Source: Thermoproteota archaeon (GTDB taxonomy: Archaea > Korarchaeota > JAOZGF01 > JAOZFZ01). From it: a stretch of DNA of 31,027 nucleotides. The position numbers and the translations under genes were made by a program. The DNA lies in contig JAOZFT010000003.1 in NCBI GenBank assembly GCA_027492035.1, positions 1 to 31,027 on the forward strand. The letters are read 5' to 3'. Of the stretch, positions 12,105 through 28,384 are shown in pieces (within the stretch, counting starts at the first letter, position 1; each line of letters opens with the position of its first letter). A model generated the notes under the pieces. That model saw only the letters and a program-made list of their open reading frames with translations, made no database searches and was not told the origin of the DNA.

Positions 12105-12707
12105 ATGACTGTTTACCATTTAAAAACTCCTGTAAAGGAAGAAGAAGTTAGGAAACTGAAAATAAGGGATATTTTATATATTTCAGGCAAAATGTTCACG
12201 GCAAGAGACGAAGGACATAAAAAAATGCTGGAAATGAAAGAAAGGGGGAAGGAGCTGCCTTTCAATCCTTCTGAAATGGTGATGTTTCACTGTGGACCAT
12301 TAATCCGAAAGAAATCAAGTGATGAATGGGAAGTTGTTGCTGCAGGCCCCACAACAAGCATTAGAATGGAAGTGTTTGAAGATGAGTTCATAAAAGAATT
12401 TAAGACAAGAGTAATTGTTGGTAAGGGAGGAATGGGTGAAAGAACAGCTAAGGCGATGCAGAAATTCGGTGCTGTTTACGCTGCTTATACAGGTGGTGCT
12501 GCAGTGTTGGCTGCAAAAGCAATTAAAAAAGTAGAAAATGTTTTCTGGCTGGATGAGCTAGGAATGCCTGAAGCAGCTTGGATCTTAAATGTTGAAAACT
12601 TCGGTCCGTTAGTTGTAACCATAGATTGCCACGGAGGCAATTTAACAGAAGAAATAATTGCTAATGTAGAGTCTAGGAAGGATAAGTTGCTTGCAATGCT
12701 GAAGTAA
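12105..12707 (+). CDS. Class I fumarate hydratase / L-tartrate dehydratase, beta subunit
   Basis: TARDEGH, FHCGP, AAGPTTSIRM, IVGKGGM, LGMPEA and FGPLVVTIDCHGGN. The SD GAGGTGA overlaps the alpha-subunit stop. Confidence 0.93.
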   Translation: MTVYHLKTPVKEEEVRKLKIRDILYISGKMFTARDEGHKKMLEMKERGKELPFNPSEMVMFHCGPLIRKKSSDEWEVVAAGPTTSIRMEVFEDEFIKEFKTRVIVGKGGMGERTAKAMQKFGAVYAAYTGGAAVLAAKAIKKVENVFWLDELGMPEAAWILNVENFGPLVVTIDCHGGNLTEEIIANVESRKDKLLAMLK

Positions 12708-12911
12708 ACCTTCCCCACTTTTTTATTTTGCAGAAGAAGGTATTTCAAAGTTCCTGATTTTTATACCTCTAGAGTCTTTCAAGAAAGTTACCTCTCCTTT
12801 TTTTAAAAGCTTCCCCTTCCTTCCCACCTTCTTCTATAGCTAAAATTTTTGAAGAAGAAATAAGTTTAGAATAAATATAAAGTTTTATTTCACTCCCTTA
12901 GGTGTTATTGT

Positions 12912-15251
12912 GTGGAGAAAAAAAGGTTTTGGTTTCTTGATGTAACAAGGGAAATTTCAAAGGGGAAAAGTGAAATATGGGTTTGGGGTTTAACAGATGA
13001 CAAAAAAAGAATTCTTTTGATAAATAAAGACTTTAGACAAGTTTTTTTCTTAGCTTTTCAAAGTAAAGAAAGGGGGAAAGTGGAGAGTTTCCTTGATAAG
13101 TTAAGTAGTGAAGGATTGGTTATCTCTTACTCCTTTAAGGAAAAAAACCTTTTCGGGAAACCTTTACAAGGTATGGAGATAGAATGCACAGCCTTTTCGT
13201 TCAACGAAGCCGTTAAAAAAATGAGTAGGGAATTCCCAGCTTGCAAAATTTTTTTTGACGACATAAACTTCACACGGCAATACCTGCTTTTCAAAGATTT
13301 ATCTCCCTCTTCATGGTATGAAACTGAAGTAGAAAGGGGGGATATAAGCGATTGGGGAGAAACTTATTTCTTTAAGGAACTGAAGAAAAGGGAACCGGGT
13401 AAAATTCCAGATTTGCGAATTCTTTCCGCTGACTTTATTTACACAAGCTCTAAAGGTGAACCTAACCCTGAAAGAGATCCTGTAGCAATTATTTCTGTTG
13501 CCACCAGTAATGGGAGCAAGGAACAATTTATTTTGCGAGAAAATGAAAAGGAGCTTCTCCATAACTTTGTTTCTTTTGTGAAGAAGTACGACCCCGACAT
13601 AATTGTTACTTTCAAGGGGAATAGTGAACACTTCTTTTACTTAGTGGAGCGTTCAAGAAGACATGGTTTAGATTTAGGTTTGGGAAGAATGAATGAGCCC
13701 CCTCATCCTGGAATTTTTGGCCATGTTTCAATTTCAGGTAGGCTCCATTTCGACTTGAAAGACTACATAAACGAAATCCCTTCTATCCAACTCAAAACCT
13801 TGAAAGAAATGGCTGATTTCTTCGGTCTAACCTGTGAAAAACACATTGATGATTTTATGTTTCCAATTTACTGGCAAGAAGGAGATTTTAAGAGGGAAGA
13901 ACTGAGAAAATATTCCATATGGAGAGCTGAAACAATTCTTAAAGTGTTTAATTTAATTATGAACCAAGTTTTTACTTTATCCCAAATAACAGGATTGCCT
14001 GCTGATCAAGTTTTTGCGGCTTCGCCAGGGTTTAGGTTAGAAAATTATTTGATGCGGGAGGCTTTAAAAAGGAATGAATTAATACCTAAATCTGCAGAAA
14101 AATTTGCAAAACGTTACATTGGAGGAAAAGTTATTTCCCCTAAGCCAGGTTTACACTCAAAAATAGCAGTTATAGATTTTAAGTCAATGTATCCAAGTTT
14201 AATGATTAAATACAACATCTCTCCTGATACAATAATAAAAATTGGAGAGGCTGAAGAGGATTCCCTCAAAATTGAAGAGGCAAAAATAGCTATTCTTCAA
14301 AAAAAGAAAGGGTTTTTCACTCAAATACTTGAAAAACTTATAGAGGAAAGGGATTTAACCAAAAAGAGGTTGAAAGAAATAAGTCGGGAGTCTGTGGAGT
14401 ACTCCCTCCTGGATGTGAAACAGAAAAACCTGAAAATACTTGCTAATGCAATGTACGGTTACATGGGATGGACAGGTGCAAGATGGTTTGTTAGAGAAGG
14501 AGCTGAAGCTGTAGCTTTTCTGGGAAGAAAAACAATAACTGAATCAATTAACAAAGCTGAAGAATTAGGGCTGGAAGTTATTTATGCAGATACTGACAGC
14601 TTATTTGTAAAATATAATGAAGAAAAGGTTAACAAGTTAATGAATTGGGTTAGGGAAGAGTTAGGCTTAGAAATTAAAATAGACAAAATTTATGAAAAAG
14701 TGGTTTTTACAGAAGCGAAAAAGAAATACGCAGGAATAACTAGTAAAGGGGAACTGGATATAGTAGGTTTAGAAGTGGTCAGAAGTGACTGGTGCAACTA
14801 TGCAAGAGAAACCCAGAAAAAGGTGTTAGAAAAATTATTAATCGATACACCTATGACAGAAATATTTGACTTAATTAAAGAAAGAGTTAACCAGTTACAG
14901 CAGGGTAAATTTAAACTAGAGGATTTAATTATTTGGGAACAAATAACGCGTTCCTTGGATGAATATAAGGCAAATGCGCCACACATACAAGTAGCTAAAA
15001 ATTTGGTTGAGAAAGGGTGGGAAGTAAAGAAAGGAGATTTTGTAGGTTACGTAATTTGTAAGGGGGAGGGGAAACTGTTTCTAAGATCCAAACATTACAC
15101 TGAAGTGAAAAAAGAAGAAGTAGATGTTGAGTACTACATTAAAAAACAAGTAATTCCCGTCTGTACCCGAGTTCTTAGGGCATTAGGAGTTTCAGAAAAA
15201 CAACTTGAACAACTTATTTCAGTTAAAAAAGGACTAGAAGCGTTTTTCTAA
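12912..15251 (+). CDS. polB: Family B DNA polymerase, PolB3-like, with apparently degenerate 3'-5' exonuclease
   Basis: Motif A DFKSMYPSLMIKYNISPDT, motif B KILANAMYGYMG, motif C YADTDS, KKKYAG, GLEVVRSDW, YYIKKQVIP and a C-terminal PIP-like KKGLEAFF. GTG start after AGGTG. Confidence 0.95.
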   Translation: MEKKRFWFLDVTREISKGKSEIWVWGLTDDKKRILLINKDFRQVFFLAFQSKERGKVESFLDKLSSEGLVISYSFKEKNLFGKPLQGMEIECTAFSFNEAVKKMSREFPACKIFFDDINFTRQYLLFKDLSPSSWYETEVERGDISDWGETYFFKELKKREPGKIPDLRILSADFIYTSSKGEPNPERDPVAIISVATSNGSKEQFILRENEKELLHNFVSFVKKYDPDIIVTFKGNSEHFFYLVERSRRHGLDLGLGRMNEPPHPGIFGHVSISGRLHFDLKDYINEIPSIQLKTLKEMADFFGLTCEKHIDDFMFPIYWQEGDFKREELRKYSIWRAETILKVFNLIMNQVFTLSQITGLPADQVFAASPGFRLENYLMREALKRNELIPKSAEKFAKRYIGGKVISPKPGLHSKIAVIDFKSMYPSLMIKYNISPDTIIKIGEAEEDSLKIEEAKIAILQKKKGFFTQILEKLIEERDLTKKRLKEISRESVEYSLLDVKQKNLKILANAMYGYMGWTGARWFVREGAEAVAFLGRKTITESINKAEELGLEVIYADTDSLFVKYNEEKVNKLMNWVREELGLEIKIDKIYEKVVFTEAKKKYAGITSKGELDIVGLEVVRSDWCNYARETQKKVLEKLLIDTPMTEIFDLIKERVNQLQQGKFKLEDLIIWEQITRSLDEYKANAPHIQVAKNLVEKGWEVKKGDFVGYVICKGEGKLFLRSKHYTEVKKEEVDVEYYIKKQVIPVCTRVLRALGVSEKQLEQLISVKKGLEAFF

Positions 15252-15470
15252 TTCCTTCAAGCCGAAATTTCAGATACGCAACTGAAAGAGACGTCAGTAG
15301 TATAGAACATTTATGTTGAAGAAAAAAAGGGAAAGAAATAAATTTTAAGGTGGAAGTATTTCTTTCATTTTTAGGTTCTCTAAAAAGAGTACGTTACGTG
15401 TGTAGCGAGTAATTTTAAATTTGGGGCAAGTTTTTAAACGAGAAAGAAGATTTTTCGAGTTGGGGAAGAA

Positions 15471-17366
15471 GTGGGTAGTGGGAACAGTTCCGAACACTTG
15501 AAAAACTTTAAAGAAAATTTTCTTTCCTTAGCAATAAACGAGAGACTAAGGTGGAACGTAACAAAATTTTTCCTATTCTCTATCACTTCTTACTTCCTTT
15601 TTCAACTTTACCCCTTTTATCCAAGCCGTTACATTTTCCTTGTTTTTAACCCCGTCCTTTTCCTTGTAGCTTTTTTAGGTTTAACATCCCTTAAGTTCCC
15701 GAAAAAAACACTTGCTACTATGCTTATTCTCTTCCTTTTCCCCTCTATTTACCAAACACCTTCCCTAATCCTTATACATCTTTCTTTAGTTGCCTTTTTT
15801 ATTTTTATTTTAGCGTGGGAATTTGTGGATTGGTTAACAGTTGCATTAATTATTTTATCATTTGTTACAGCATTGAACAGCACTATTTGTTTTTTTTCGC
15901 CTGTACCTATTCTATTCTTGGGTCTCAAAAACCGTAGAGAAGGTATGATTGCTGGTTTAACTGCTTCTTTCTTCATTTCTGTTTATGTCCTATGTAACGG
16001 ATTTAAAGGAGGCTTTGTTTATATTCCTTCAAGCCTGTATATTTCAAAAATCACTTTTAAAACCCCGCCAATCCCTTTCAGAAAATATGCTCCACTCTAC
16101 TTTTTTAACACCTTAAGTGAAGCCTTCAAATTTGATAGTTTAATAACTTTCGGTAAAGCTTTGGCTGTTTTCATAGATGAGCCACAGTTACTGCTTCAAG
16201 TAGTTACTTGGGGGTTTGTTGGGTTTACGGAACTAGAACTTCTACGGAAAATGAAGGAAATCTTAAAATGGAAAGAAAAATTCTACCTAACTACTCCAGC
16301 TTCCCTACTAAGCTCAATTCTAATCCTTGCCTACTACATTCTTTATTCAAACAACGGCAACTTATACTACTTAACCCTCTTCCTTGCTTCAACTCTTTTC
16401 ATGTCGCACCTTTATGGTTACATGAAAGTAAAGAGTGAAACTACTAAATTAAAGTATTTAATGAAGGAGGGAAGGGAAGAACTGCAATTTTTAACAACTC
16501 AGCTGAAAAAGGAAAAAACCTTTTTTCAAAGATACCTTCTAGAACTAAACAATTTAAAAAAAGGCTTCGAAGACGCCTTAAAACTTTGTAGACAATGGGA
16601 GTTTGAAGAAGCTAGGCAAAAAATTAAAGAAACAAACAAAGAAGTCAAAAAACTCAGCAAAGAAATAACAAAAACAATTTCTGAAACTGAAGAAGTTAAG
16701 GAGACATTTGAAAACTTAGAGGTGCAATTAAATGAAGTTAAGGCGTTACTTGCTGAAAAAGAGCTGAAAATTAAATTAAACAGCTACCTGAAGGAAACCC
16801 AGAGCTTGGAAAATAAATTAAATGAATTAATAAGGGCATTTAAAACAGAGGGGTTAACTCCTAAGTTAAAAATGGGAATTAAATCCCTAAAAACAGAAAT
16901 TACAGAATTAAGGCATGGAATAAAAGAATTTTTGGGTTTAAGAAGTACAGTGTTAATAGACGGTTCAAATGTTGCGCTATATGGCACATCGGAAGGTGAA
17001 CCTGCAAAACTTGAAAACATAAAGTTGTTACTGAAAGAAGTGCATAGAAACGGTTTTGAACCTATAACCATTGTCGATGCAAGTTTAAGGTATAGAATAA
17101 ACAAAAGAGAAGAATTTCAATCTATGTTAAACAGCGGTGAAATACTTCAGGCACCTGCTAAAAGAGCAGCTGACGAATTTATCCTAGATTATGCTGACCG
17201 TGAAAATTTACCTGTGATAAGTAACGACACTTATAAAGAATATAGAGAAAAGTATCCTTGGGTGAATGAGCCAACAAGAAAAATAACTTTTATGATTATA
17301 GGGGAAACAGTTATTTTCAACCCCTCCCTTCAAACCTTGAAAAAGAGAAGAATTTTGACACAATAA
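15471..17366 (+). CDS. Multi-pass membrane protein with coiled coil and C-terminal Zc3h12a/NYN (PIN-fold) ribonuclease domain
   Basis: Residues ~30-320 are hydrophobic helices and ~325-490 are E/K/L-rich coiled coil. The C-terminus has VLIDGSNVA...IVDASLR...ADEFILDYA...VISNDTYKEY...YPW, as in Zc3h12a-like RNases. Confidence 0.8.
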   Translation: MGSGNSSEHLKNFKENFLSLAINERLRWNVTKFFLFSITSYFLFQLYPFYPSRYIFLVFNPVLFLVAFLGLTSLKFPKKTLATMLILFLFPSIYQTPSLILIHLSLVAFFIFILAWEFVDWLTVALIILSFVTALNSTICFFSPVPILFLGLKNRREGMIAGLTASFFISVYVLCNGFKGGFVYIPSSLYISKITFKTPPIPFRKYAPLYFFNTLSEAFKFDSLITFGKALAVFIDEPQLLLQVVTWGFVGFTELELLRKMKEILKWKEKFYLTTPASLLSSILILAYYILYSNNGNLYYLTLFLASTLFMSHLYGYMKVKSETTKLKYLMKEGREELQFLTTQLKKEKTFFQRYLLELNNLKKGFEDALKLCRQWEFEEARQKIKETNKEVKKLSKEITKTISETEEVKETFENLEVQLNEVKALLAEKELKIKLNSYLKETQSLENKLNELIRAFKTEGLTPKLKMGIKSLKTEITELRHGIKEFLGLRSTVLIDGSNVALYGTSEGEPAKLENIKLLLKEVHRNGFEPITIVDASLRYRINKREEFQSMLNSGEILQAPAKRAADEFILDYADRENLPVISNDTYKEYREKYPWVNEPTRKITFMIIGETVIFNPSLQTLKKRRILTQ

Positions 17367-24116: not shown

Positions 24117-25280
24117 TTGCAGGAGAAAGGTTTGACTGAAACTGAAATAATGGAAATAATTTCTGGAAAAGTGAAAAGTGACTTCACCTACGATTCAGGG
24201 CGGATTTTAAGCTCTATGTGCAGCAAACCAGATCGCTTAAGCATGAAAATTTATTCCATGTTTCTTGAAAAGAACTTAGGCGACCCCTTTCTCTTTCCTT
24301 CCTGCAAATTTTTTGAAGAAGAAGTAGTTAACATGTTAGGTGAGTTACTTTCAAATAAGAAGGCTGCAGGCTTCATTGTTTCGGGAGGAACTGAAGCTAA
24401 CATACTTTCTATGTGGGTCGCTGTTAAAAACTCTTCAGTTAAAAAACCTGAGGTTTTAGCACCTGAAACTGTCCATTTCTCTTTCGATAAGGCCTCAAGT
24501 CTTTTAGGGTTCCGCCTTATAAAAATAGGTTTAAATGATGAATTTCAAGTAAATGTTAACGAGATGAAGAAAAGGTTGACAAGTAACACAGTAGCTATTG
24601 TAGGAGTTGCAGGGTCTTCAGGGTTAGGTGTAGTCGATTCAATACCTGAGCTGAATGAATTAGCTGAAGAAAACCACCTTTATCTCCATGTTGATGCAGC
24701 TTTCGGGGGTTTAATAATTCCTTTTCTGAAAGAGGAGGGGGTTGAAGTACCGGACTTCGACTTTAAACTTTCCTCTGTCTCCTCAATCACGGTTGACCCG
24801 CATAAAGCAGGGTTCACTCCTATTCCTTCAGGTTGCATCCTTTTTAAAAACAAAGAGTTAATTGAAGATTTCGGTTTTGAAGTTAAGTATGGAATAGGGG
24901 AGACTTATAAACAAAAAACGTTGCTAGGTACAAGACCATGTGCAGCGACAATAGCTACATGGGCTGCTTTGAAACACTTGGGAAAGAACGGGTTCCGGGA
25001 AAGGGTGAAGTATTGTTTGAAATTAACGAATTATTTTGTTTCCAAAATAAAGAATTTTGACAGGGTTAAGCTAGTTGTAGCTCCCCAGCTTAACATTGTA
25101 GGTTTCAAAACTGTGGGCTTAGGTGAATCTTTAGTTGTTAAGAAGTTAAGGGAGAAAGGGTGGGGTTTAACTCTTTATAAAGATTTCATAAGAATTATTT
25201 TGCTTCCTCACATCTCATTTCAAAACCTGGAAGAGTTTCTTCATGATTTAAAAAATATTTTAAGAGGATTAAGAAAGTAA
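24117..25280 (+). CDS. mfnA: L-tyrosine/L-aspartate decarboxylase (PLP-dependent), methanofuran biosynthesis
   Basis: GRILSSMCS, NLGDP.LFP, SGGTEANI, HFSFDKA, LHVDAAFGG, the PLP-lysine motif TVDPHKAG and GTRP. It is adjacent to mfnB. Confidence 0.93.
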   Translation: MQEKGLTETEIMEIISGKVKSDFTYDSGRILSSMCSKPDRLSMKIYSMFLEKNLGDPFLFPSCKFFEEEVVNMLGELLSNKKAAGFIVSGGTEANILSMWVAVKNSSVKKPEVLAPETVHFSFDKASSLLGFRLIKIGLNDEFQVNVNEMKKRLTSNTVAIVGVAGSSGLGVVDSIPELNELAEENHLYLHVDAAFGGLIIPFLKEEGVEVPDFDFKLSSVSSITVDPHKAGFTPIPSGCILFKNKELIEDFGFEVKYGIGETYKQKTLLGTRPCAATIATWAALKHLGKNGFRERVKYCLKLTNYFVSKIKNFDRVKLVVAPQLNIVGFKTVGLGESLVVKKLREKGWGLTLYKDFIRIILLPHISFQNLEEFLHDLKNILRGLRK

Positions 25281-25324
25281 TTTCTTTAAGTGATTCCTTT
25301 CCAGGGAAGGTGGGAAATGAGGGA

Positions 25325-26032
25325 ATGAAGGTTTTAGTAAGTGTGAAAGATAAAGAGGAAGCTGTTGAAGCTTTAAATGGGGGAGCGCATATTATAGACT
25401 TAAAAAACCCAAGTGAAGGTTCATTAGGCCCCTGTTTCCCTTGGGTAGTGGAAGAAGTCATTGAAGCCGTTTCCGGGGAAAGGGAAATAAGTTTAGCGAT
25501 CGGGGACTTCACTTACTTACCTGGCACAGCCTCTCTAGCTGCTTTCGGGGCTTCTCACTTAAACATAAATTATGTTAAGGTGGGGCTTAAAACTAAATCT
25601 TTTGAGGAGGCTATTGACTTATTAAGTAAAGTTGTTAAAACCATCAAGAGTTATAACGGAAAAATAAAAATTGTGGCTGTAGGTTACGCTGACTATTCAA
25701 GAGTAGATGTTGTTCCTGTAGATAAAGTACCTGAAGTAGCAAGTGAAGCAGGAGCTCATGTTGCAATGATAGATACAGCCATAAAAGACGGGAAAAGTTT
25801 ATTCCATTTCTTGTCGAAAAAAGAAGTAAATAATTTCTTGGTTAATGCACGGAGGAAAAAATTGATGACAGCCTTGGCAGGCTCCTTAAAATTTAAGGAT
25901 TTGGCTTTAATTAAAAAACTGAAACCTGATGTGGTAGGTTTCAGGGGTTTAGCCTGTGAAAAGGGAGACCGTGTAAACGGTAGAGTTAAGCAAGAAAGAG
26001 TTAACGAAATAATTAATCTTTTACATGAATAG
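25325..26032 (+). CDS. mfnB: (5-formylfuran-3-yl)methyl phosphate synthase (4-HFC-P synthase)
   Basis: LVSV...EEA.EA..GGA.IIDLKNPSEGSLG, PGTASLAA.GA, YVKVGL, GYADY, MIDTAIKDGKSLF, ALAGSL and PDVVGFRG. ATG 25325 is preferred over GTG 25310. Confidence 0.93.
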   Translation: MKVLVSVKDKEEAVEALNGGAHIIDLKNPSEGSLGPCFPWVVEEVIEAVSGEREISLAIGDFTYLPGTASLAAFGASHLNINYVKVGLKTKSFEEAIDLLSKVVKTIKSYNGKIKIVAVGYADYSRVDVVPVDKVPEVASEAGAHVAMIDTAIKDGKSLFHFLSKKEVNNFLVNARRKKLMTALAGSLKFKDLALIKKLKPDVVGFRGLACEKGDRVNGRVKQERVNEIINLLHE

Positions 26033-26067
26033 TAAATTCCTTACCTTGTTTTACATTTTTTCCTTCC

Positions 26068-27159
26068 TTAAATACTCCATCTCCTCTTAACTTCCTCTCC
26101 ACTTATTATCTCTTCCTTAACGGCTGTCAACAAAGCTAAACCTGAAACAGGAGCAGTAATAAAGGCTGCCTCCTTCAACTTTTCAGGTAAAGTAATTATT
26201 TTTTGGAAGCCAGCTTTTTTAGCAGCCTCTCCTGCTAAAAAACTCCTTCCCAAGCCTGTAGTCACAATTGATATTGGGTTTTTGGAATTTTTCACTTGTG
26301 CAAATCTTGACGAAACTTGTTTCAACCCTTCAACTATTTGATTAATTTGTTCCATGTAAATATAACTACAGATGCTGATTATCTCCCCCTCATTCAACAT
26401 CCCTAAATCGGCACAAATCACTCTCGCCACTCTAGCCATAGCCTCCTTCCTTGTTTTCCCTCTTCCATCAGCTGTTTCTGTGGAGTAACTTTCTTGGCTA
26501 ATGTGGCCAAGCAATAAATGGACATCTCCCGAAAGAGCGAAAACTTCAGAGGAAACTCTTGAAAAGAAACCTTTCACAGGTACTTTTTTCGTTATAGTGG
26601 CTATGTTTGTCCTGAGAGAACCTGTATACACTAATTCGCCACATATAAGCTTTTCTAAATCAGTTTTTCCTTTTGCAACGATTTTTCCGTTAAAAACAGG
26701 AATAATGCTGGTAGTTGTGCTTCCTACGTCTATTACTATACAGTTTTTGTACCAGTTTGCAACAAGCCATCCTGTAGCCACCCAATTCGCTGATGCCACC
26801 TCTAAATGACCTTTTTTAGCTGTTTCAGGTGTAACTAGTTCCCCTTTAACATTTAAGACAGAGATTGGGAACTTTGGAAAAACCTTCTCCACACACTCAA
26901 TTACGTGGTTAACCCCTTCCCTTTTAGTGAAGTAGGCATCTGAAAGTTCAGCTGTCATTGTTAAACCTACTGCTTCAAATTTTTCAGACCCTAATTTTTC
27001 GGTAACATCCTTGATTGCTCTTTGAAGAGACTCCTTACCTCTTCTCCAAATTGGGAAGTAAAGTTTAGCTGTTTTCAAACCAATTATTCTATTTTTCTTT
27101 ACTTCTAAAGCTGCAGCCTTAATGTTTGCGCCTCCAACATCTAAAGCCAAAACTTTCAT
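26068..27159 (-). CDS. mfnF: Hydantoinase/oxoprolinase-like methanofuran biosynthesis protein MfnF (Orf9-like)
   Basis: ALDVGGANIK, YFPIW, TMTAELSDAY..KREGV, ASANW, IDVGSTTTSIIP, GELVYTG.LRTN, TADGRGK and RVARVICAD. ATG 27159 is preferred over GTG 27174. Confidence 0.88.
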   Translation of the reverse strand: MKVLALDVGGANIKAAALEVKKNRIIGLKTAKLYFPIWRRGKESLQRAIKDVTEKLGSEKFEAVGLTMTAELSDAYFTKREGVNHVIECVEKVFPKFPISVLNVKGELVTPETAKKGHLEVASANWVATGWLVANWYKNCIVIDVGSTTTSIIPVFNGKIVAKGKTDLEKLICGELVYTGSLRTNIATITKKVPVKGFFSRVSSEVFALSGDVHLLLGHISQESYSTETADGRGKTRKEAMARVARVICADLGMLNEGEIISICSYIYMEQINQIVEGLKQVSSRFAQVKNSKNPISIVTTGLGRSFLAGEAAKKAGFQKIITLPEKLKEAAFITAPVSGLALLTAVKEEIISGEEVKRRWSI

Positions 27160-27163
27160 TCTT

Positions 27164-28384
27164 TCAGCCACCAAGAAAGGTTTCTATTTTCTTTTTAACC
27201 CGTAATAAATTGTTTCTAGCTTCTCTCCTTCCTTCACCGTAACCTGTAATTAAAACATAGTTACTTTTCTCTCCCTCAAATAAAGGCATCGGAGGGACTT
27301 CCACCCCCTCTAATCTACTTTTCAATATCTCATTTGAAAAATTGTATGGTACCTTAAGCTTAAGGAAGTAGGTGAAACCATGTGTCTCAATTTTCATCGG
27401 CAATTTCTTTTTTAGGACAGCATCCATGATTAAACGGGGAGTATTTGCGTCTAAAACCTTGCTTACACCCACATAAGAAGTTGTTAGTCTAGGATTTATT
27501 TCCACAATGAATGAAGCATCTTTTGTTAAAACTAAATCAACACCTACGTATCCCCTTAATCCCTTAAAGAGTTTAATTGTTTTCGAAACATTTTCTAAAG
27601 CCTCTTTTTGTGAATTCACATGTAAAGGGGTTAAGCCTCCCTTGTAAATTGAAGAACTATTAGGCCCCCCTAAATTTAGAAACTGATAGTTAAGGGTTAG
27701 AGGAATAATTTTTGAACCGTTAGAAATTAAACTAACACTTGCATTTATTCCCTTAATGAATTCTTGGACAACTACCCCCTTCTTATAAATTTCCTCCTTT
27801 TTAAGCTTCTTTAAAGCAAGCTTTATTTGAGATTTACTTTTTACGACTTGGATTCCAGAACAACCAACCCCTTCCACAGGTTTAAGAACAAGGGGTAAAT
27901 TGAATTCCTTCAAAACTTTCATTGCTTCAAGAGTGTCAGATGGGTTCTTAATGAATTCAGTGAATGGAGTATTTACCTTCCCTCTTCTAATTTTCCTGTA
28001 AAAATTCATTTTGTTCCTTACATTTTTTATAGCTTCAACTGAACAGTTTAAGGAAAGACAATTATCTGTAAGTAAAGACACTTTCTCCTCAAGTACGCCT
28101 GAACTTTCAGGGGCAATAATGTATGAAGCATAGAAATCATGTGTTTCAACAAGTTCTTTAAGTGAGAGACCCTGCGAAGAGACAACTTCTACATTCCCAA
28201 CTTCTTTTAAAACTTTAAATTTTATAAGGGAAGGGGAGAGAACAGTTGTAACTTGATAACCTGCTTTGACGAAGTCTTTCAGCAAAGTTTTTAACATGGC
28301 TAAACCTTCACATAAAATGCTTGAGGTAACTGTTTTGTTAATTGAGGCGTAAGCTGAAGCAAACTCGAAAACAAAAACTTTCAT
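27164..28384 (-). CDS. mfnD: ATP-grasp tyramine--L-glutamate ligase MfnD-like
   Basis: MKVFVFEFAS...ILCEGLAML, IIAPE.G.L, LKPVEGVGC, QEFIKGINASVS, YKGG.TP, GLRGYVGVD and EINPRLTTSYVG, within an mfn cluster. Confidence 0.85.
   Translation of the reverse strand: MKVFVFEFASAYASINKTVTSSILCEGLAMLKTLLKDFVKAGYQVTTVLSPSLIKFKVLKEVGNVEVVSSQGLSLKELVETHDFYASYIIAPESSGVLEEKVSLLTDNCLSLNCSVEAIKNVRNKMNFYRKIRRGKVNTPFTEFIKNPSDTLEAMKVLKEFNLPLVLKPVEGVGCSGIQVVKSKSQIKLALKKLKKEEIYKKGVVVQEFIKGINASVSLISNGSKIIPLTLNYQFLNLGGPNSSSIYKGGLTPLHVNSQKEALENVSKTIKLFKGLRGYVGVDLVLTKDASFIVEINPRLTTSYVGVSKVLDANTPRLIMDAVLKKKLPMKIETHGFTYFLKLKVPYNFSNEILKSRLEGVEVPPMPLFEGEKSNYVLITGYGEGRREARNNLLRVKKKIETFLGG

What the first reader, a model, noticed from the sequence alone, without database searches (positions are those of the whole stretch)
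12912..15251. PolB3-like polymerase with intact polymerase site but all three proofreading motifs degenerate
Seen in sequence: polymerase motifs A (DFKSMYPS, ~14175), B (KILANAMYG, ~14433) and C (YADTDS, ~14583) keep their catalytic residues. ExoI reads SADFIY (~13425-13442) instead of AFDIE, so the Glu is gone. ExoII reads TFKGNSEHFFYL (~13608-13643) instead of GYN...FD.PYL, so the Asn and Asp are gone. ExoIII reads KYSIWRA (~13908-13928) instead of Y...D, so the Asp is gone. Established knowledge: these carboxylates bind the two exonuclease metals. Archaeal PolB2 enzymes usually also have altered polymerase motifs and a truncated N-terminus, whereas this protein is full-length and B3-like. 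Inference: a proofreading-deficient, possibly repair, translesion or mutator paralog that may still load on PCNA through the KKGLEAFF tail.
Basis: partly seen in the sequence, partly recalled or inferred. Interest (0 to 1): 0.72.

Follow-up and report, generated by a model that had tools for sequence, protein, structure and literature searches.

The report
Proofreading-dead PolB3 DNA polymerase, clade-wide
This gene encodes an archaeal family-B (PolB3-type) DNA polymerase whose copying site is intact but whose built-in proofreading site has lost its catalytic residues, and the same loss is shared by a large branch of PolB3 enzymes in many uncultured archaeal lineages, so it is an old, maintained trait rather than a peculiarity of this genome.

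Summary
ORF 12912-15251 (+, 779 aa) is a full-length family-B polymerase. Its best solved relative is Pyrobaculum calidifontis PolB3 (5mdn, E 1.6e-160). Polymerase motifs A, B and C are intact. ExoI keeps Asp174 but has Ile176 for Glu. ExoII has Lys235 and His240 for Asn and Asp. ExoIII keeps Tyr334 but has Arg338 for Asp.

The loss is not unique. In a tree built from polymerase-domain columns only, the protein sits in one supported clade of exonuclease-dead PolB3 (37 of 37 rows, FastTree 98; 32 rows, SH-aLRT 96). That clade holds proteins labelled Geothermarchaeota, Aigarchaeota, Nitrososphaeria, Bathyarchaeia, Brockarchaeota, Methanomethylicia and Methanodesulfokora. Its sister is the exonuclease-intact Thermoprotei PolB3.

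Of 77 named genome loci scored, 67 keep 0-1 of the four carboxylates. The other 10, all with Thermoprotei-type labels, keep all four.

The genome also has an intact PolB1, PolD (DP1 and DP2), PolY and one PCNA. The C-terminal tail docks on PCNA in a model (0.62 against 0.01 for the best control).

Most likely it is a clamp-tethered accessory polymerase without proofreading. This scan has reported the same clade on other DNA. I found no description of it in print.

The parts
12872..12881 (+). A/T-rich TATA-like box (TAAATATAAA) about 35 nt upstream of the GTG start. A GGTG lies at 12901-12904.
   Evidence: Read directly from the sequence. Not tested, so only a candidate promoter or ribosome-binding site. 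The 204-nt gap after the fumarase beta gene suggests the gene has its own promoter.
12912..15251 (+). polB3 gene: 779-aa family-B DNA polymerase (P0001), GTG start, stop included.
   Evidence: Pfam DNA_pol_B 5.2e-72 and DNA_pol_B_exo1 8.8e-19. 5mdn_A E 1.6e-160 over residues 5-767. AF2 model pLDDT 93.3, pTM 0.90. Foldseek 5mdn_A E 6.2e-68, TMq 0.82.
12912..13301 (+). N-terminal domain (about residues 1-130). The FxPYFY motif of relatives reads FRQVFF here.
   Evidence: Alignment A1 segments. Well folded in the model.
13302..13946 (+). 3'-5' exonuclease-fold domain (about residues 131-345), catalytically degenerate.
   Evidence: Pfam exo1 match at residues 112-288. The 10-residue pLDDT block means over this range are 89-98, except one block at 77. 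Within-clade identity of this domain relative to the polymerase domain is 0.73, between the two exonuclease-intact groups at 0.82 and 0.71.
13425..13442 (+). ExoI remnant SADFIY: Asp174 kept, Glu replaced by Ile176.
13608..13643 (+). ExoII remnant TFKGNSEHFFYL: Asn replaced by Lys235, Asp replaced by His240.
13908..13928 (+). ExoIII remnant KYSIWRA: Tyr334 kept, Asp replaced by Arg338. YSxWRA is conserved in the nearest relatives.
14175..14198 (+). Polymerase motif A DFKSMYPS (Asp422).
   Evidence: D422 is invariant in alignments A1 and A2.
14433..14459 (+). Polymerase motif B KILANAMYG (Lys508, Asn512, Tyr515).
   Evidence: Invariant columns.
14583..14600 (+). Polymerase motif C YADTDS (Asp560, Asp562).
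   Evidence: Invariant columns.
15225..15248 (+). C-terminal PIP-like tail KKGLEAFF (residues 772-779), disordered in the monomer model.
   Evidence: pLDDT below 50 for 772-779. The G[LM]E[AS]FF ending is conserved in the nearest relatives, and the genome's own PolB1 ends KTLESFFN. In the complex model, residues 773-776, 778 and 779 contact PCNA.

Best explanation
The gene is this lineage's orthologue of archaeal PolB3. It is an active family-B DNA polymerase that keeps the exonuclease domain as a folded scaffold but cannot proofread, because three of the four metal-binding carboxylates are replaced (Glu to Ile176, Asp to His240, Asp to Arg338).

The inactivation is ancient. It maps to the stem of one PolB3 sub-clade spread over the non-Thermoprotei lineages of Thermoproteota, and it has been maintained under purifying selection on the rest of the protein.

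The enzyme is most likely loaded on the single PCNA through its C-terminal PIP-like tail. It would then work as an accessory polymerase without proofreading: repair gap filling, mismatch or lesion extension, or short-patch lagging-strand synthesis. Bulk, proofread replication would be done by PolD (whose DP1 carries an exonuclease) and/or the exonuclease-intact PolB1 in the same genome.

Shown: identity, motif states, clade-wide distribution, fold, and co-resident polymerases. Inferred: loss of exonuclease activity, PCNA loading, and the cellular role.
For: Identity:
- Pfam domains.
- 5mdn_A E 1.6e-160 against PolB1 1s5j E 1.6e-40.
- The Kazlauskas 2020 figure legend names 5mdn as PolB3 of P. 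calidifontis (passages read).
- Foldseek TMq 0.82-0.85 to 5mdn and Thermococcales PolB.

Motif states.

Clade-wide trait:
- Of the 298 pooled homologues, 141 keep all four carboxylates, 147 keep 0-1, 9 keep two and 1 keeps three. 290 of 298 keep the three polymerase Asp residues.
- In a tree from polymerase-domain columns only, the exonuclease-dead proteins form one clade. FastTree: 37 of 37 rows, support 98. IQ-TREE LG+C20 PMSF: 32 rows, SH-aLRT 96. The sister group is the exonuclease-intact Desulfurococcus, Thermogladius and Thermofilaceae PolB3.
- The whole 135-row tree needs only 4 intact/dead changes. ExoI Glu needs 5 and ExoIII Asp needs 6. ExoI Asp and ExoII Asp need 10 and 12. This suggests the first two were lost early and the rest drifted afterwards.
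- Of 80 named genome loci, 77 were scored. Ten keep all four carboxylates, all with Thermoprotei-type labels. The other 67 keep 0-1.

Orthology by synteny: a convergent Toprim (DnaG-type) gene lies downstream in 8 of 8 exonuclease-intact and 11 of 11 Bathyarchaeia-labelled exonuclease-dead loci scanned. Makarova 2014 describes this arrangement for crenarchaeal polB3 (passages read).

Maintained gene:
- The frame is open and the model is confident (pLDDT 93.3).
- The exonuclease-to-polymerase identity ratio of 0.73 lies within the range of the exonuclease-intact groups, 0.82 and 0.71.

Division of labour:
- The genome has an intact PolB1 (ALDIEV, FNGDNFDLPYL, YCLRDSE; 1s5j E 1.2e-218). It also has PolD DP2, DP1, PolY and one PCNA.
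- PolD DP2 was found in 17 of 20 genomes carrying an exonuclease-dead PolB3 and in 0 of 10 carrying an exonuclease-intact one.

PCNA:
- The tail is conserved.
- The complex model supports binding: score 0.62, best of 3 controls 0.01. That mark was reached by 116 of 157 solved complexes and 2 of 215 mismatched pairs. The runs agree in at least 90% of contacts, and partner pLDDT is at least 58.
- PolB-PCNA complexes have been solved (3a2f is listed), so this pass may only reflect likeness to them.
Against: - No biochemical data exist for any member of the clade, so loss of exonuclease activity is inferred from residue identity alone.
- Asp174 remains, and a non-conserved Glu239 sits next to His240. 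I could not inspect model coordinates to rule out a rebuilt metal site.
- YSxWRA and NxxH are strongly conserved in the nearest relatives. The pocket is therefore under some constraint that a purely structural role does not explain.
- The PolD correlation is in effect one evolutionary contrast (Thermoprotei against the rest). Three exonuclease-dead carriers gave no PolD hit (G041, G045, G049; MAG completeness unknown).
- Euryarchaeota have PolD together with an exonuclease-intact PolB3 (recalled).
- The locus gives no functional hint. Its neighbours are fumarase subunits and a membrane NYN-RNase protein. It lacks both the DnaG and the DHH neighbours seen in relatives.
- PolB2 co-occurs with the exonuclease-dead PolB3 in related genomes G001 and G022, so PolB3 is not simply a substitute for the PolB2 extender.
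Confidence: 0.6

Rival explanations
1. It is still a core replicative polymerase, for example on the lagging strand or in Okazaki-fragment completion. Its errors would be removed in trans by the exonucleases of PolD-DP1 or PolB1, or by mismatch surveillance. Loss of its own exonuclease could favour strand displacement.
For: - It is the only PolB3 in the genome.
- It is conserved across a very large clade, with a polymerase domain as conserved as in exonuclease-intact PolB3 (mean within-group identity 0.475 against 0.476 and 0.447).
- The PCNA tail is kept.
- Relatives keep the convergent dnaG neighbour.
- Makarova 2014 discusses PolB3 as a lagging-strand enzyme (passages read).
Against: - Titles and abstracts listed state that PolB1 is sufficient for replication in Sulfolobus (PMC7785828) and treat PolB2 and PolB3 as putative repair polymerases (PMC8100216).
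- Kazlauskas 2020, section 15, notes that T. kodakarensis PolB3 matters for repair and not replication.
- A replicase without proofreading would be unusual.
Confidence: 0.2
2. Proofreading is supplied in trans by a dedicated partner nuclease, a roughly 395-aa DHH (RecJ-like) protein encoded directly downstream of the exonuclease-dead PolB3 in related lineages.
For: - A DHH-family gene lies immediately downstream in L040, L042, L044, L058, L079 and L112. That is 6 of the 7 loci labelled Geothermarchaeota, Brockarchaeota, Nitrososphaer*, Thaumarchaeota or Thermoproteota that had a downstream ORF scanned.
- G000 has a homologue at C12:71822-72919, 38-39% identical.
- Earlier scan note e1-969437 raised the same link.
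Against: - In this genome the two genes lie on different contigs.
- The far larger Bathyarchaeia branch has DnaG, not DHH, as its neighbour.
- The polarity and substrate of this DHH protein are unknown.
Confidence: 0.07
3. The exonuclease site is remodelled rather than dead. Asp174, His240 and other residues would form an alternative catalytic or 3'-end-binding centre.
For: D174, H240, W337 and R338 are conserved across the nearest relatives, as seen in the motif columns for P0003-P0010. The domain is confidently folded.
Against: - Two-metal DEDD chemistry needs the lost carboxylates (established knowledge, recalled).
- The replacement residues differ between sub-branches: DIKHYR here, SIGDFN in Bathyarchaeia, HIGLYC in Methanomethylicia. 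That pattern fits drift better than a new shared active site.
Confidence: 0.06
4. The gene is a decaying or non-functional copy.
For: Loss of catalytic residues in one domain.
Against: - The ORF is an open 779-aa frame.
- 290 of the 298 pooled homologues keep the polymerase Asp triad.
- 59 columns are invariant across the 29 clade members aligned.
- The model is confident.
Confidence: 0.02

Closest known systems
Crenarchaeal (Thermoprotei) PolB3, e.g. Pyrobaculum calidifontis polymerase (PDB 5mdn), and the Desulfurococcus, Thermofilaceae and Aeropyrum-type PolB3
   Same: Same domain order and length. It is the best sequence match (E 1.6e-160) and the best fold match. It is the sister group in both trees. 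Polymerase motifs A, B and C are the same, and both end in an L-x-x-F-F/L-type C-terminal tail.
   Different: Those enzymes keep DxE, NxxxFD and YxxxD (DENDYD). This protein has D-I, K-H and Y-R. The N-terminal FxPYFY motif is also changed, to FRQVFF. The convergent dnaG neighbour is absent here.
Archaeal PolB2 (Sulfolobales Dpo2) with its iRadA and PPB2 partners
   Same: A family-B polymerase with an inactivated exonuclease site. PolB2 is described as a translesion extender (PMC8764526 title and abstract; PMC11791011 passages).
   Different: PolB2 is shorter (684-696 aa in L036 and L037) and sits beside an inactivated RadA gene. It usually lacks the first Asp of motif C. It branches far from the window protein. 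The window gene has an intact YADTDS and no iRadA neighbour. No PolB2 was found in this assembly by tblastn. G001 (the same family as the window's genome) and G022 carry both proteins.
Eukaryotic Pol alpha and Pol zeta catalytic subunits
   Same: Family-B polymerases with an intact polymerase site and an inactivated but retained exonuclease domain (Kazlauskas 2020 introduction). They work beside proofreading replicases.
   Different: This protein has no C-terminal metal-binding domain and no known B-subunit partner, and it ends in a PIP-like tail. The loss arose independently, inside the archaeal PolB3 group.
Thermococcales PolB (Pfu, KOD, Tgo, 9 degrees N) and their engineered exonuclease-minus variants
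   Same: Same fold (TMq up to 0.85). Laboratory exonuclease-minus mutants that change the same carboxylates are active polymerases (recalled).
   Different: 28-30% identity, and a different PolB3 sub-branch. Here the loss is natural and lineage-wide, not engineered.

Membership tests
Family B DNA polymerase, archaeal PolB3 group | Full N-terminal, exonuclease-fold and polymerase (palm, fingers, thumb) architecture | tested here: met
   Pfam PF03104 and PF00136. AF2 pLDDT 93.3. Full-length Foldseek matches to 5mdn and Thermococcales PolB.
Family B DNA polymerase, archaeal PolB3 group | Closer to PolB3 references than to PolB1 or PolB2, and placed inside the PolB3 clade | tested here: met
   5mdn 1.6e-160 against 1s5j 1.6e-40. 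Trees rooted on the genome's own PolB1. PolB2 sequences branch elsewhere.
Family B DNA polymerase, archaeal PolB3 group | Polymerase motifs A (DxxSLYPS-type), B (KxxxNxxYG) and C (YxDTDS) with catalytic Asp residues | tested here: met
   DFKSMYPS, KILANAMYG and YADTDS. D422, D560 and D562 are invariant in A1 and A2.
Family B DNA polymerase, archaeal PolB3 group | Active DEDD-type 3'-5' exonuclease motifs ExoI, ExoII and ExoIII, typical of characterised PolB3 | tested here: not met
   Only Asp174 of the four carboxylates remains. This does not exclude membership by descent, but the protein is not a canonical proofreading PolB3.
Family B DNA polymerase, archaeal PolB3 group | Convergent dnaG neighbour, reported for crenarchaeal polB3 | tested here: not met
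   The window's neighbours are fumarase subunits and a membrane NYN-RNase protein. DnaG lies on contig C9. The neighbour is present in 19 of 19 Thermoprotei-type and Bathyarchaeia-labelled loci scanned.
Archaeal PolB2 (Dpo2-type) | iRadA and PPB2 operon partners, reduced exonuclease domain, and usually a single Asp in motif C | tested here: not met
   No RadA-like neighbour. Motif C is intact. The protein is 24-29% identical to PolB2 of G001 and G022. It is placed separately.
DEDD 3'-5' exonuclease (catalytically active) | Four acidic metal ligands plus Tyr or His | tested here: not met
   D-I / K-H / Y-R. Activity itself cannot be tested with these tools.
PCNA-interacting proteins (PIP-box clients) | C-terminal hydrophobic and aromatic motif that docks into the PCNA interdomain pocket | tested here: met
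   The tail is KKGLEAFF. L775, F778 and F779 contact PCNA residues 40-47, 124-128, 226-227 and 243-245 in the model. Score 0.62, best of 3 controls 0.01. That mark was reached by 116 of 157 solved complexes and 2 of 215 mismatched pairs. Runs agree in at least 90% of contacts, and partner pLDDT is at least 58. This is a textbook pair, so the pass shows likeness and not proven binding. The canonical Gln is replaced by Lys.
Eukaryote-type exonuclease-inactive B polymerases (Pol alpha, Pol zeta) | C-terminal Cys-rich metal-binding domain that binds a B-subunit | tested here: not met
   The protein ends 8 residues after the thumb with the PIP-like tail, and no Cys-rich C-terminal domain is present. 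The resemblance is functional only.

The most novel reading that the evidence does not exclude
Proofreading was switched off once in PolB3, at the base of the PolD-bearing Thermoproteota lineages (Bathyarchaeia, Aigarchaeota/Nitrososphaeria, Geothermarchaeota, Brockarchaeota, Methanomethylicia and some Korarchaeia). This would have created an archaeal division of labour like that of Pol alpha or Pol zeta: a clamp-bound family-B polymerase without proofreading working beside proofreading replicases. In the window's sub-branch, the former active-site pocket (D174, H240, W337, R338, all conserved) may have been repurposed as a non-catalytic binding site for a 3' end or a mismatch. The N-terminal deaminated-base pocket may also have been lost, giving an enzyme tuned to extend damaged or mismatched termini.
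Probability: 0.18. Interest if true: 0.7.

Novelty: new variant of a known kind. Interest (0 to 1): 0.48.

Why it matters
The review passages I read discuss archaeal PolB3 as a replication or repair polymerase and report catalytic-site inactivation only for PolB2.

Here a whole PolB3 branch has an intact polymerase site and a dead exonuclease site. It covers very abundant uncultured archaea, including Bathyarchaeia and thermophilic Nitrososphaeria and Aigarchaeota.

If biochemistry confirms this, three things follow:
- Models of who replicates and who repairs DNA in these lineages change.
- It gives a natural archaeal parallel to the exonuclease-inactive eukaryotic Pol alpha and Pol zeta.
- It provides natural thermostable exonuclease-minus family-B enzymes.

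For this particular window the gene is one more member of that branch, from a sparsely sampled order.

Tried and rejected
- **PolB2 identity: rejected.** Motif C is intact and there is no iRadA neighbour. tblastn with PolB2 and iRadA from G001 and G022 finds only the PolB3 and PolB1 genes and a RadA-like locus in G000. The two PolB2 rows that aligned (G001, G022) join each other on long branches near the root, not the exonuclease-dead clade. That placement is unreliable because the tool warned that two long branches meet.
- **Exonuclease-dead PolB3 as a replacement for PolB2: rejected.** G001 and G022 carry both.
- **Recent or private mutation, or assembly error: rejected** by the clade-wide pattern.
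- **Foreign origin by composition:** nothing unusual. GC is 0.34-0.36 across the gene against 0.33-0.41 across the window.
- **Expression data:** none was listed, and no RNA holder was listed for window 12600-15500.
- **Literature on an exonuclease-dead PolB3 branch:** searches. Passages or sections were read in PMC4104785, PMC7544198 (including section 15), PMC12680538, bioRxiv 10.1101/235028, PMC3984812, PMC2669801 and PMC11791011. None mentions it. Figures and supplements, such as the motif logos and tables of Kazlauskas 2020, were not seen and could show it. Subscription journals were not searched.
- **Coordinate-level check of the exonuclease pocket:** not possible, because the tools return no coordinates.
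- **Domain-wise decay test:** the exonuclease domain did not evolve disproportionately fast, so the idea of a freely decaying domain was dropped.
Full report
**1. What is there**

The window has an open frame at 12912-15251 on the + strand: 779 aa with a GTG start.
- Pfam finds DNA_pol_B (E 5.2e-72, residues 364-757) and the family-B exonuclease domain (PF03104, E 8.8e-19, residues 112-288).
- Against all PDB sequences the best hit is 5mdn_A (E 1.6e-160, residues 5-767 against 2-771). Thermococcales PolB enzymes follow at about 1e-98 to 1e-90. The Sulfolobus-type PolB1 structure 1s5j scores only 1.6e-40.
- A Kazlauskas 2020 figure legend names 5mdn as PolB3 of Pyrobaculum calidifontis.
- An AlphaFold2 model built on a 50-sequence alignment is confident (pLDDT 93.3, pTM 0.90). 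Only residues 772-779 fall below 50.
- Foldseek matches the model over its full length to 5mdn (E 6.2e-68, TMq 0.82) and to KOD, 9 degrees N and Tgo polymerases (TMq up to 0.85).

**2. The observation**

The residue-level alignment to 5mdn and a 120-sequence alignment give the following assignments.

| Motif | Canonical residue | This protein |
|---|---|---|
| ExoI | Asp | Asp174, kept |
| ExoI | Glu | Ile176 |
| ExoII | Asn | Lys235 |
| ExoII | Asp | His240 |
| ExoIII | Tyr | Tyr334, kept |
| ExoIII | Asp | Arg338 |

Polymerase motifs A (D422), B (K508, N512, Y515) and C (D560, D562) are intact, and these columns are invariant in two alignments. That these carboxylates bind the two exonuclease metals is established knowledge, which I recalled.

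**3. It is a clade trait, not a private oddity**

I pooled 298 homologues from three searches and anchored them on one profile.
- The distribution is bimodal. 141 keep all four carboxylates, 147 keep none or one, 9 keep two and 1 keeps three.
- 290 of the 298 keep the three polymerase aspartates.

To avoid circularity, I built the trees from polymerase-domain columns only (P0001 residues 345-765, 423 columns) and rooted them on the genome's own PolB1.
- In FastTree (135 rows) the window protein lies in a 37-row clade (SH-like support 98). All 37 rows keep at most one carboxylate.
- In IQ-TREE with LG+C20 PMSF (76 rows chosen from the 135) the corresponding 32-row clade has SH-aLRT 96.
- Its sister rows are the exonuclease-intact PolB3 of Desulfurococcus, Thermogladius and Thermofilaceae. 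A Culexmicrobium sequence that has independently lost part of the site also sits there.
- The whole 135-row tree needs only 4 intact/dead changes. The ExoI Glu needs 5 changes and the ExoIII Asp needs 6. The ExoI Asp and ExoII Asp need 10 and 12. This fits an early knockout followed by drift of the leftover ligands. The window's branch keeps the ExoI Asp, while Bathyarchaeia keep the ExoII Asp (pattern SIGDFN).

Source names inside the clade are Geothermarchaeales, Aigarchaeota, Nitrososphaeria/Nitrososphaerota, Bathyarchaeia and Verstraetearchaeota/Methanomethylicota.

A scan of one genome per species returned 80 named loci. 77 could be scored.
- Ten keep all four carboxylates. All have Thermoprotei-type labels: Acidilobaceae x3, Aeropyrum, Caldisphaera, Calypsonella, Desulfurococcaceae, Desulfurococcales, Thermodiscus and one 'Thermoprotei archaeon'.
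- 67 keep 0-1. These comprise 49 Bathyarchaeia/Bathyarchaeota loci, plus loci labelled Geothermarchaeota, Brockarchaeota, Nitrososphaer*, Thaumarchaeota, Methanomethylicia, Methanodesulfokora and 'Thermoprotei archaeon SZUA-1514'.
- A few carry bacterial or Methanocella labels and are probably mis-binned.
- Three loci (L039, L059, L090) had gaps at the scored positions and were dropped from the count.

**4. Orthology and maintenance**

- A convergent Toprim (DnaG-type) gene follows polB3 in 8 of 8 exonuclease-intact loci and in 11 of 11 Bathyarchaeia-labelled exonuclease-dead loci whose neighbours I scanned (57 neighbour proteins from 29 of the 80 loci). Makarova 2014 describes this arrangement for crenarchaeal polB3. 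The exonuclease-dead genes are therefore positional orthologues of PolB3.
- Within the dead clade, mean pairwise identity is 0.27 for the N-terminal domain, 0.35 for the exonuclease domain and 0.48 for the polymerase domain. The exonuclease-to-polymerase ratio of 0.73 lies between those of the two exonuclease-intact groups, 0.82 and 0.71. The exonuclease fold is therefore being kept and is not eroding.
- In the nearest relatives the replaced positions are themselves conserved (D-[FV]-[IV]-Y, N-x-x-H-W, Y-S-x-W-R-A). A purely structural role does not fully explain this.

**5. Genome context**

- The assembly (1.87 Mb, 42 contigs, 93% complete) has two family-B genes. One is this gene. The other is an 838-aa PolB1 on contig C9 with intact ALDIEV, FNGDNFDLPYL and YCLRDSE motifs and 1s5j as its best PDB hit (E 1.2e-218).
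- It also has PolD DP2, DP1, a Y-family polymerase and one PCNA.
- No PolB2 or iRadA was found by tblastn. The same-family genome G001 and genome G022 have both an exonuclease-dead PolB3 and a PolB2-iRadA pair.
- The window gene is thus the sole PolB3 orthologue, not an extra paralogue.
- PolD DP2 was detected in 17 of 20 genomes carrying an exonuclease-dead PolB3 and in 0 of 10 carrying an exonuclease-intact one. This is essentially a single phylogenetic contrast, and the three misses may be incomplete MAGs or real.
- The immediate neighbours here are fumarase alpha and beta subunits upstream and a membrane protein with a NYN RNase domain downstream. Neither DnaG (C9:343317-344459) nor the DHH gene (C12:71822-72919) is linked to it.
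- A TATA-like box and a GGTG precede the start. These are untested.

**6. PCNA tail**

- The protein ends KKGLEAFF. The nearest relatives end G[LM]E[AS]FF, more distant ones end L-x-D-F-F/L, and the genome's own PolB1 ends KTLESFFN.
- A complex prediction of the genome's PCNA with residues 730-779 passed. The score was 0.62, with 0.01 as the best of 3 controls. That mark was reached by 116 of 157 solved complexes and 2 of 215 mismatched pairs. The runs agree in at least 90% of contacts, and partner pLDDT is at least 58.
- The contacts are L775, F778 and F779 against PCNA residues 40-47, 124-128, 226-227 and 243-245.
- PolB-PCNA complexes have been solved (3a2f is listed). The pass therefore shows likeness to a known interface and does not prove binding.

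**7. How it most likely works**

Shown: this is a conserved, well-folded PolB3 orthologue with a complete polymerase site, a gutted exonuclease site and a clamp-binding-type tail. It sits in a genome that has two other polymerases with proofreading modules.

Inferred: it synthesises DNA on PCNA without editing. It would serve in tasks where editing is unnecessary or counter-productive: repair gap filling, extension from mismatched or damaged termini, or short-patch and strand-displacement synthesis during Okazaki maturation. PolD and/or PolB1 would carry out bulk replication.

I put about 0.9 on the identity and inactivation part and about 0.5 on the accessory-role part, or 0.6 overall. The rivals are:
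- a true replicative role with proofreading in trans (0.2);
- a dedicated DHH partner nuclease, suggested by the conserved neighbour in 6 of 7 related loci scanned but unlinked here (0.07);
- a remodelled rather than dead pocket (0.06);
- a dead gene (0.02).

**8. Comparison with what is known**

- It is a member of PolB3 by descent, fold and polymerase motifs, but it fails the proofreading feature of characterised PolB3 enzymes.
- It is not PolB2.
- It works like, but is not a member of, the eukaryotic exonuclease-inactive Pol alpha and Pol zeta, since it has no metal-binding C-terminal domain.
- Seven literature searches, plus passages from seven papers, turned up no description of an exonuclease-dead PolB3 branch (18, 20, 21, 24, 25, 35, 43, 82). 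Figures and supplements were not seen.
- Earlier agents of this scan reported the same branch on other genomes (e1-5159136, e1-907043, e1-2189121). My independent tests agree with them.

**9. Verdict**

It is not a rare paralogue, however, but a lineage-wide orthologue. I class it as a new variant of a known kind at the level of the clade, and this gene is one more member of it. Interest 0.48.

Noticed in passing
window 24117-28384: A cluster resembling methanofuran biosynthesis. It holds a PLP-dependent decarboxylase (24117-25280 +), 4-HFC-P synthase PF04476 (25310-26032 +, E 3.5e-76), a hydantoinase_A-like protein (26068-27174 -) and an ATP-grasp protein (27164-28384 -). This is of interest in a Thermoproteota lineage of unknown physiology.
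   Followed up: no
window 15471-17366 (+): A 631-aa protein directly downstream of polB3. It has a long hydrophobic (multi-pass membrane-like) N-terminal half, a coiled-coil-like middle and a C-terminal Zc3h12a-like NYN RNase domain (PF11977, E 1.1e-17). A membrane-anchored NYN nuclease is unusual.
   Followed up: no
L012:1174-3390 and relatives (L013-L033; proteins P0242, P0270-P0293): A second, separate exonuclease-dead PolB group of about 740 aa. Its pattern is SLGEYK at the six exonuclease positions, motif C is YIDTDG, and the tail is GGLEEWFG. It occurs in 'same phylum' genomes, and source names say Korarchaeum. It branches outside the main PolB3 clades (100 support for the group). Shorter relatives of about 583 aa exist, and one is labelled Nanoarchaeia.
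   Followed up: partly
L037:232-3365 (G001, same family as the window's genome): A PolB2-like gene (696 aa) with an intact YGDTDS motif C, directly downstream of an inactivated RadA-like gene (Walker A degenerate). This matches the DxD-containing TACK PolB2 described in PMC11791011. No counterpart was found in the window's own assembly.
   Followed up: partly
L011 (G002, same order as the window's genome): The only PolB3-like hit in this 71%-complete relative is an exonuclease-intact (DENDYD) protein of the other large PolB3 clade, 33% identical to the window protein. Within one order, two different PolB3 types occur. Possible causes are transfer, differential loss or binning.
   Followed up: no
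window 13026-13061 (residues 39-50) and alignment A1: The N-terminal F-x-P-Y-F-Y motif is kept in exonuclease-intact PolB3 and in most Bathyarchaeia exonuclease-dead PolB3. It is replaced in the window's sub-branch (FRQVFF here, QKQKFY and QVHRFY in relatives). From recall, the Pro-Tyr pair belongs to the uracil/hypoxanthine read-ahead pocket of Thermococcales PolB, so template-uracil sensing may also be lost here.
   Followed up: partly
L040, L042, L044, L058, L079, L112 (downstream of polB3); G000 C12:71822-72919: A DHH-family (RecJ-like) gene of about 395 aa lies immediately downstream of the exonuclease-dead polB3 in loci labelled Geothermarchaeota, Brockarchaeota, Nitrososphaerales, Nitrososphaerota, Thaumarchaeota and Thermoproteota. 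Three of these genomes gave no PolD DP2 hit (G041, G045, G049). In the window's genome the homologue lies on another contig.
   Followed up: partly
G000 contig C9, about 325-345 kb: Replication genes cluster on C9: DP1 (325577-326188), PCNA (339152-339463) followed by a 336-aa ORF whose C-terminal Cys pattern resembles a primase large subunit (my reading, not tested), and DnaG (343317-344459). polB3 lies apart, on C33.
   Followed up: no
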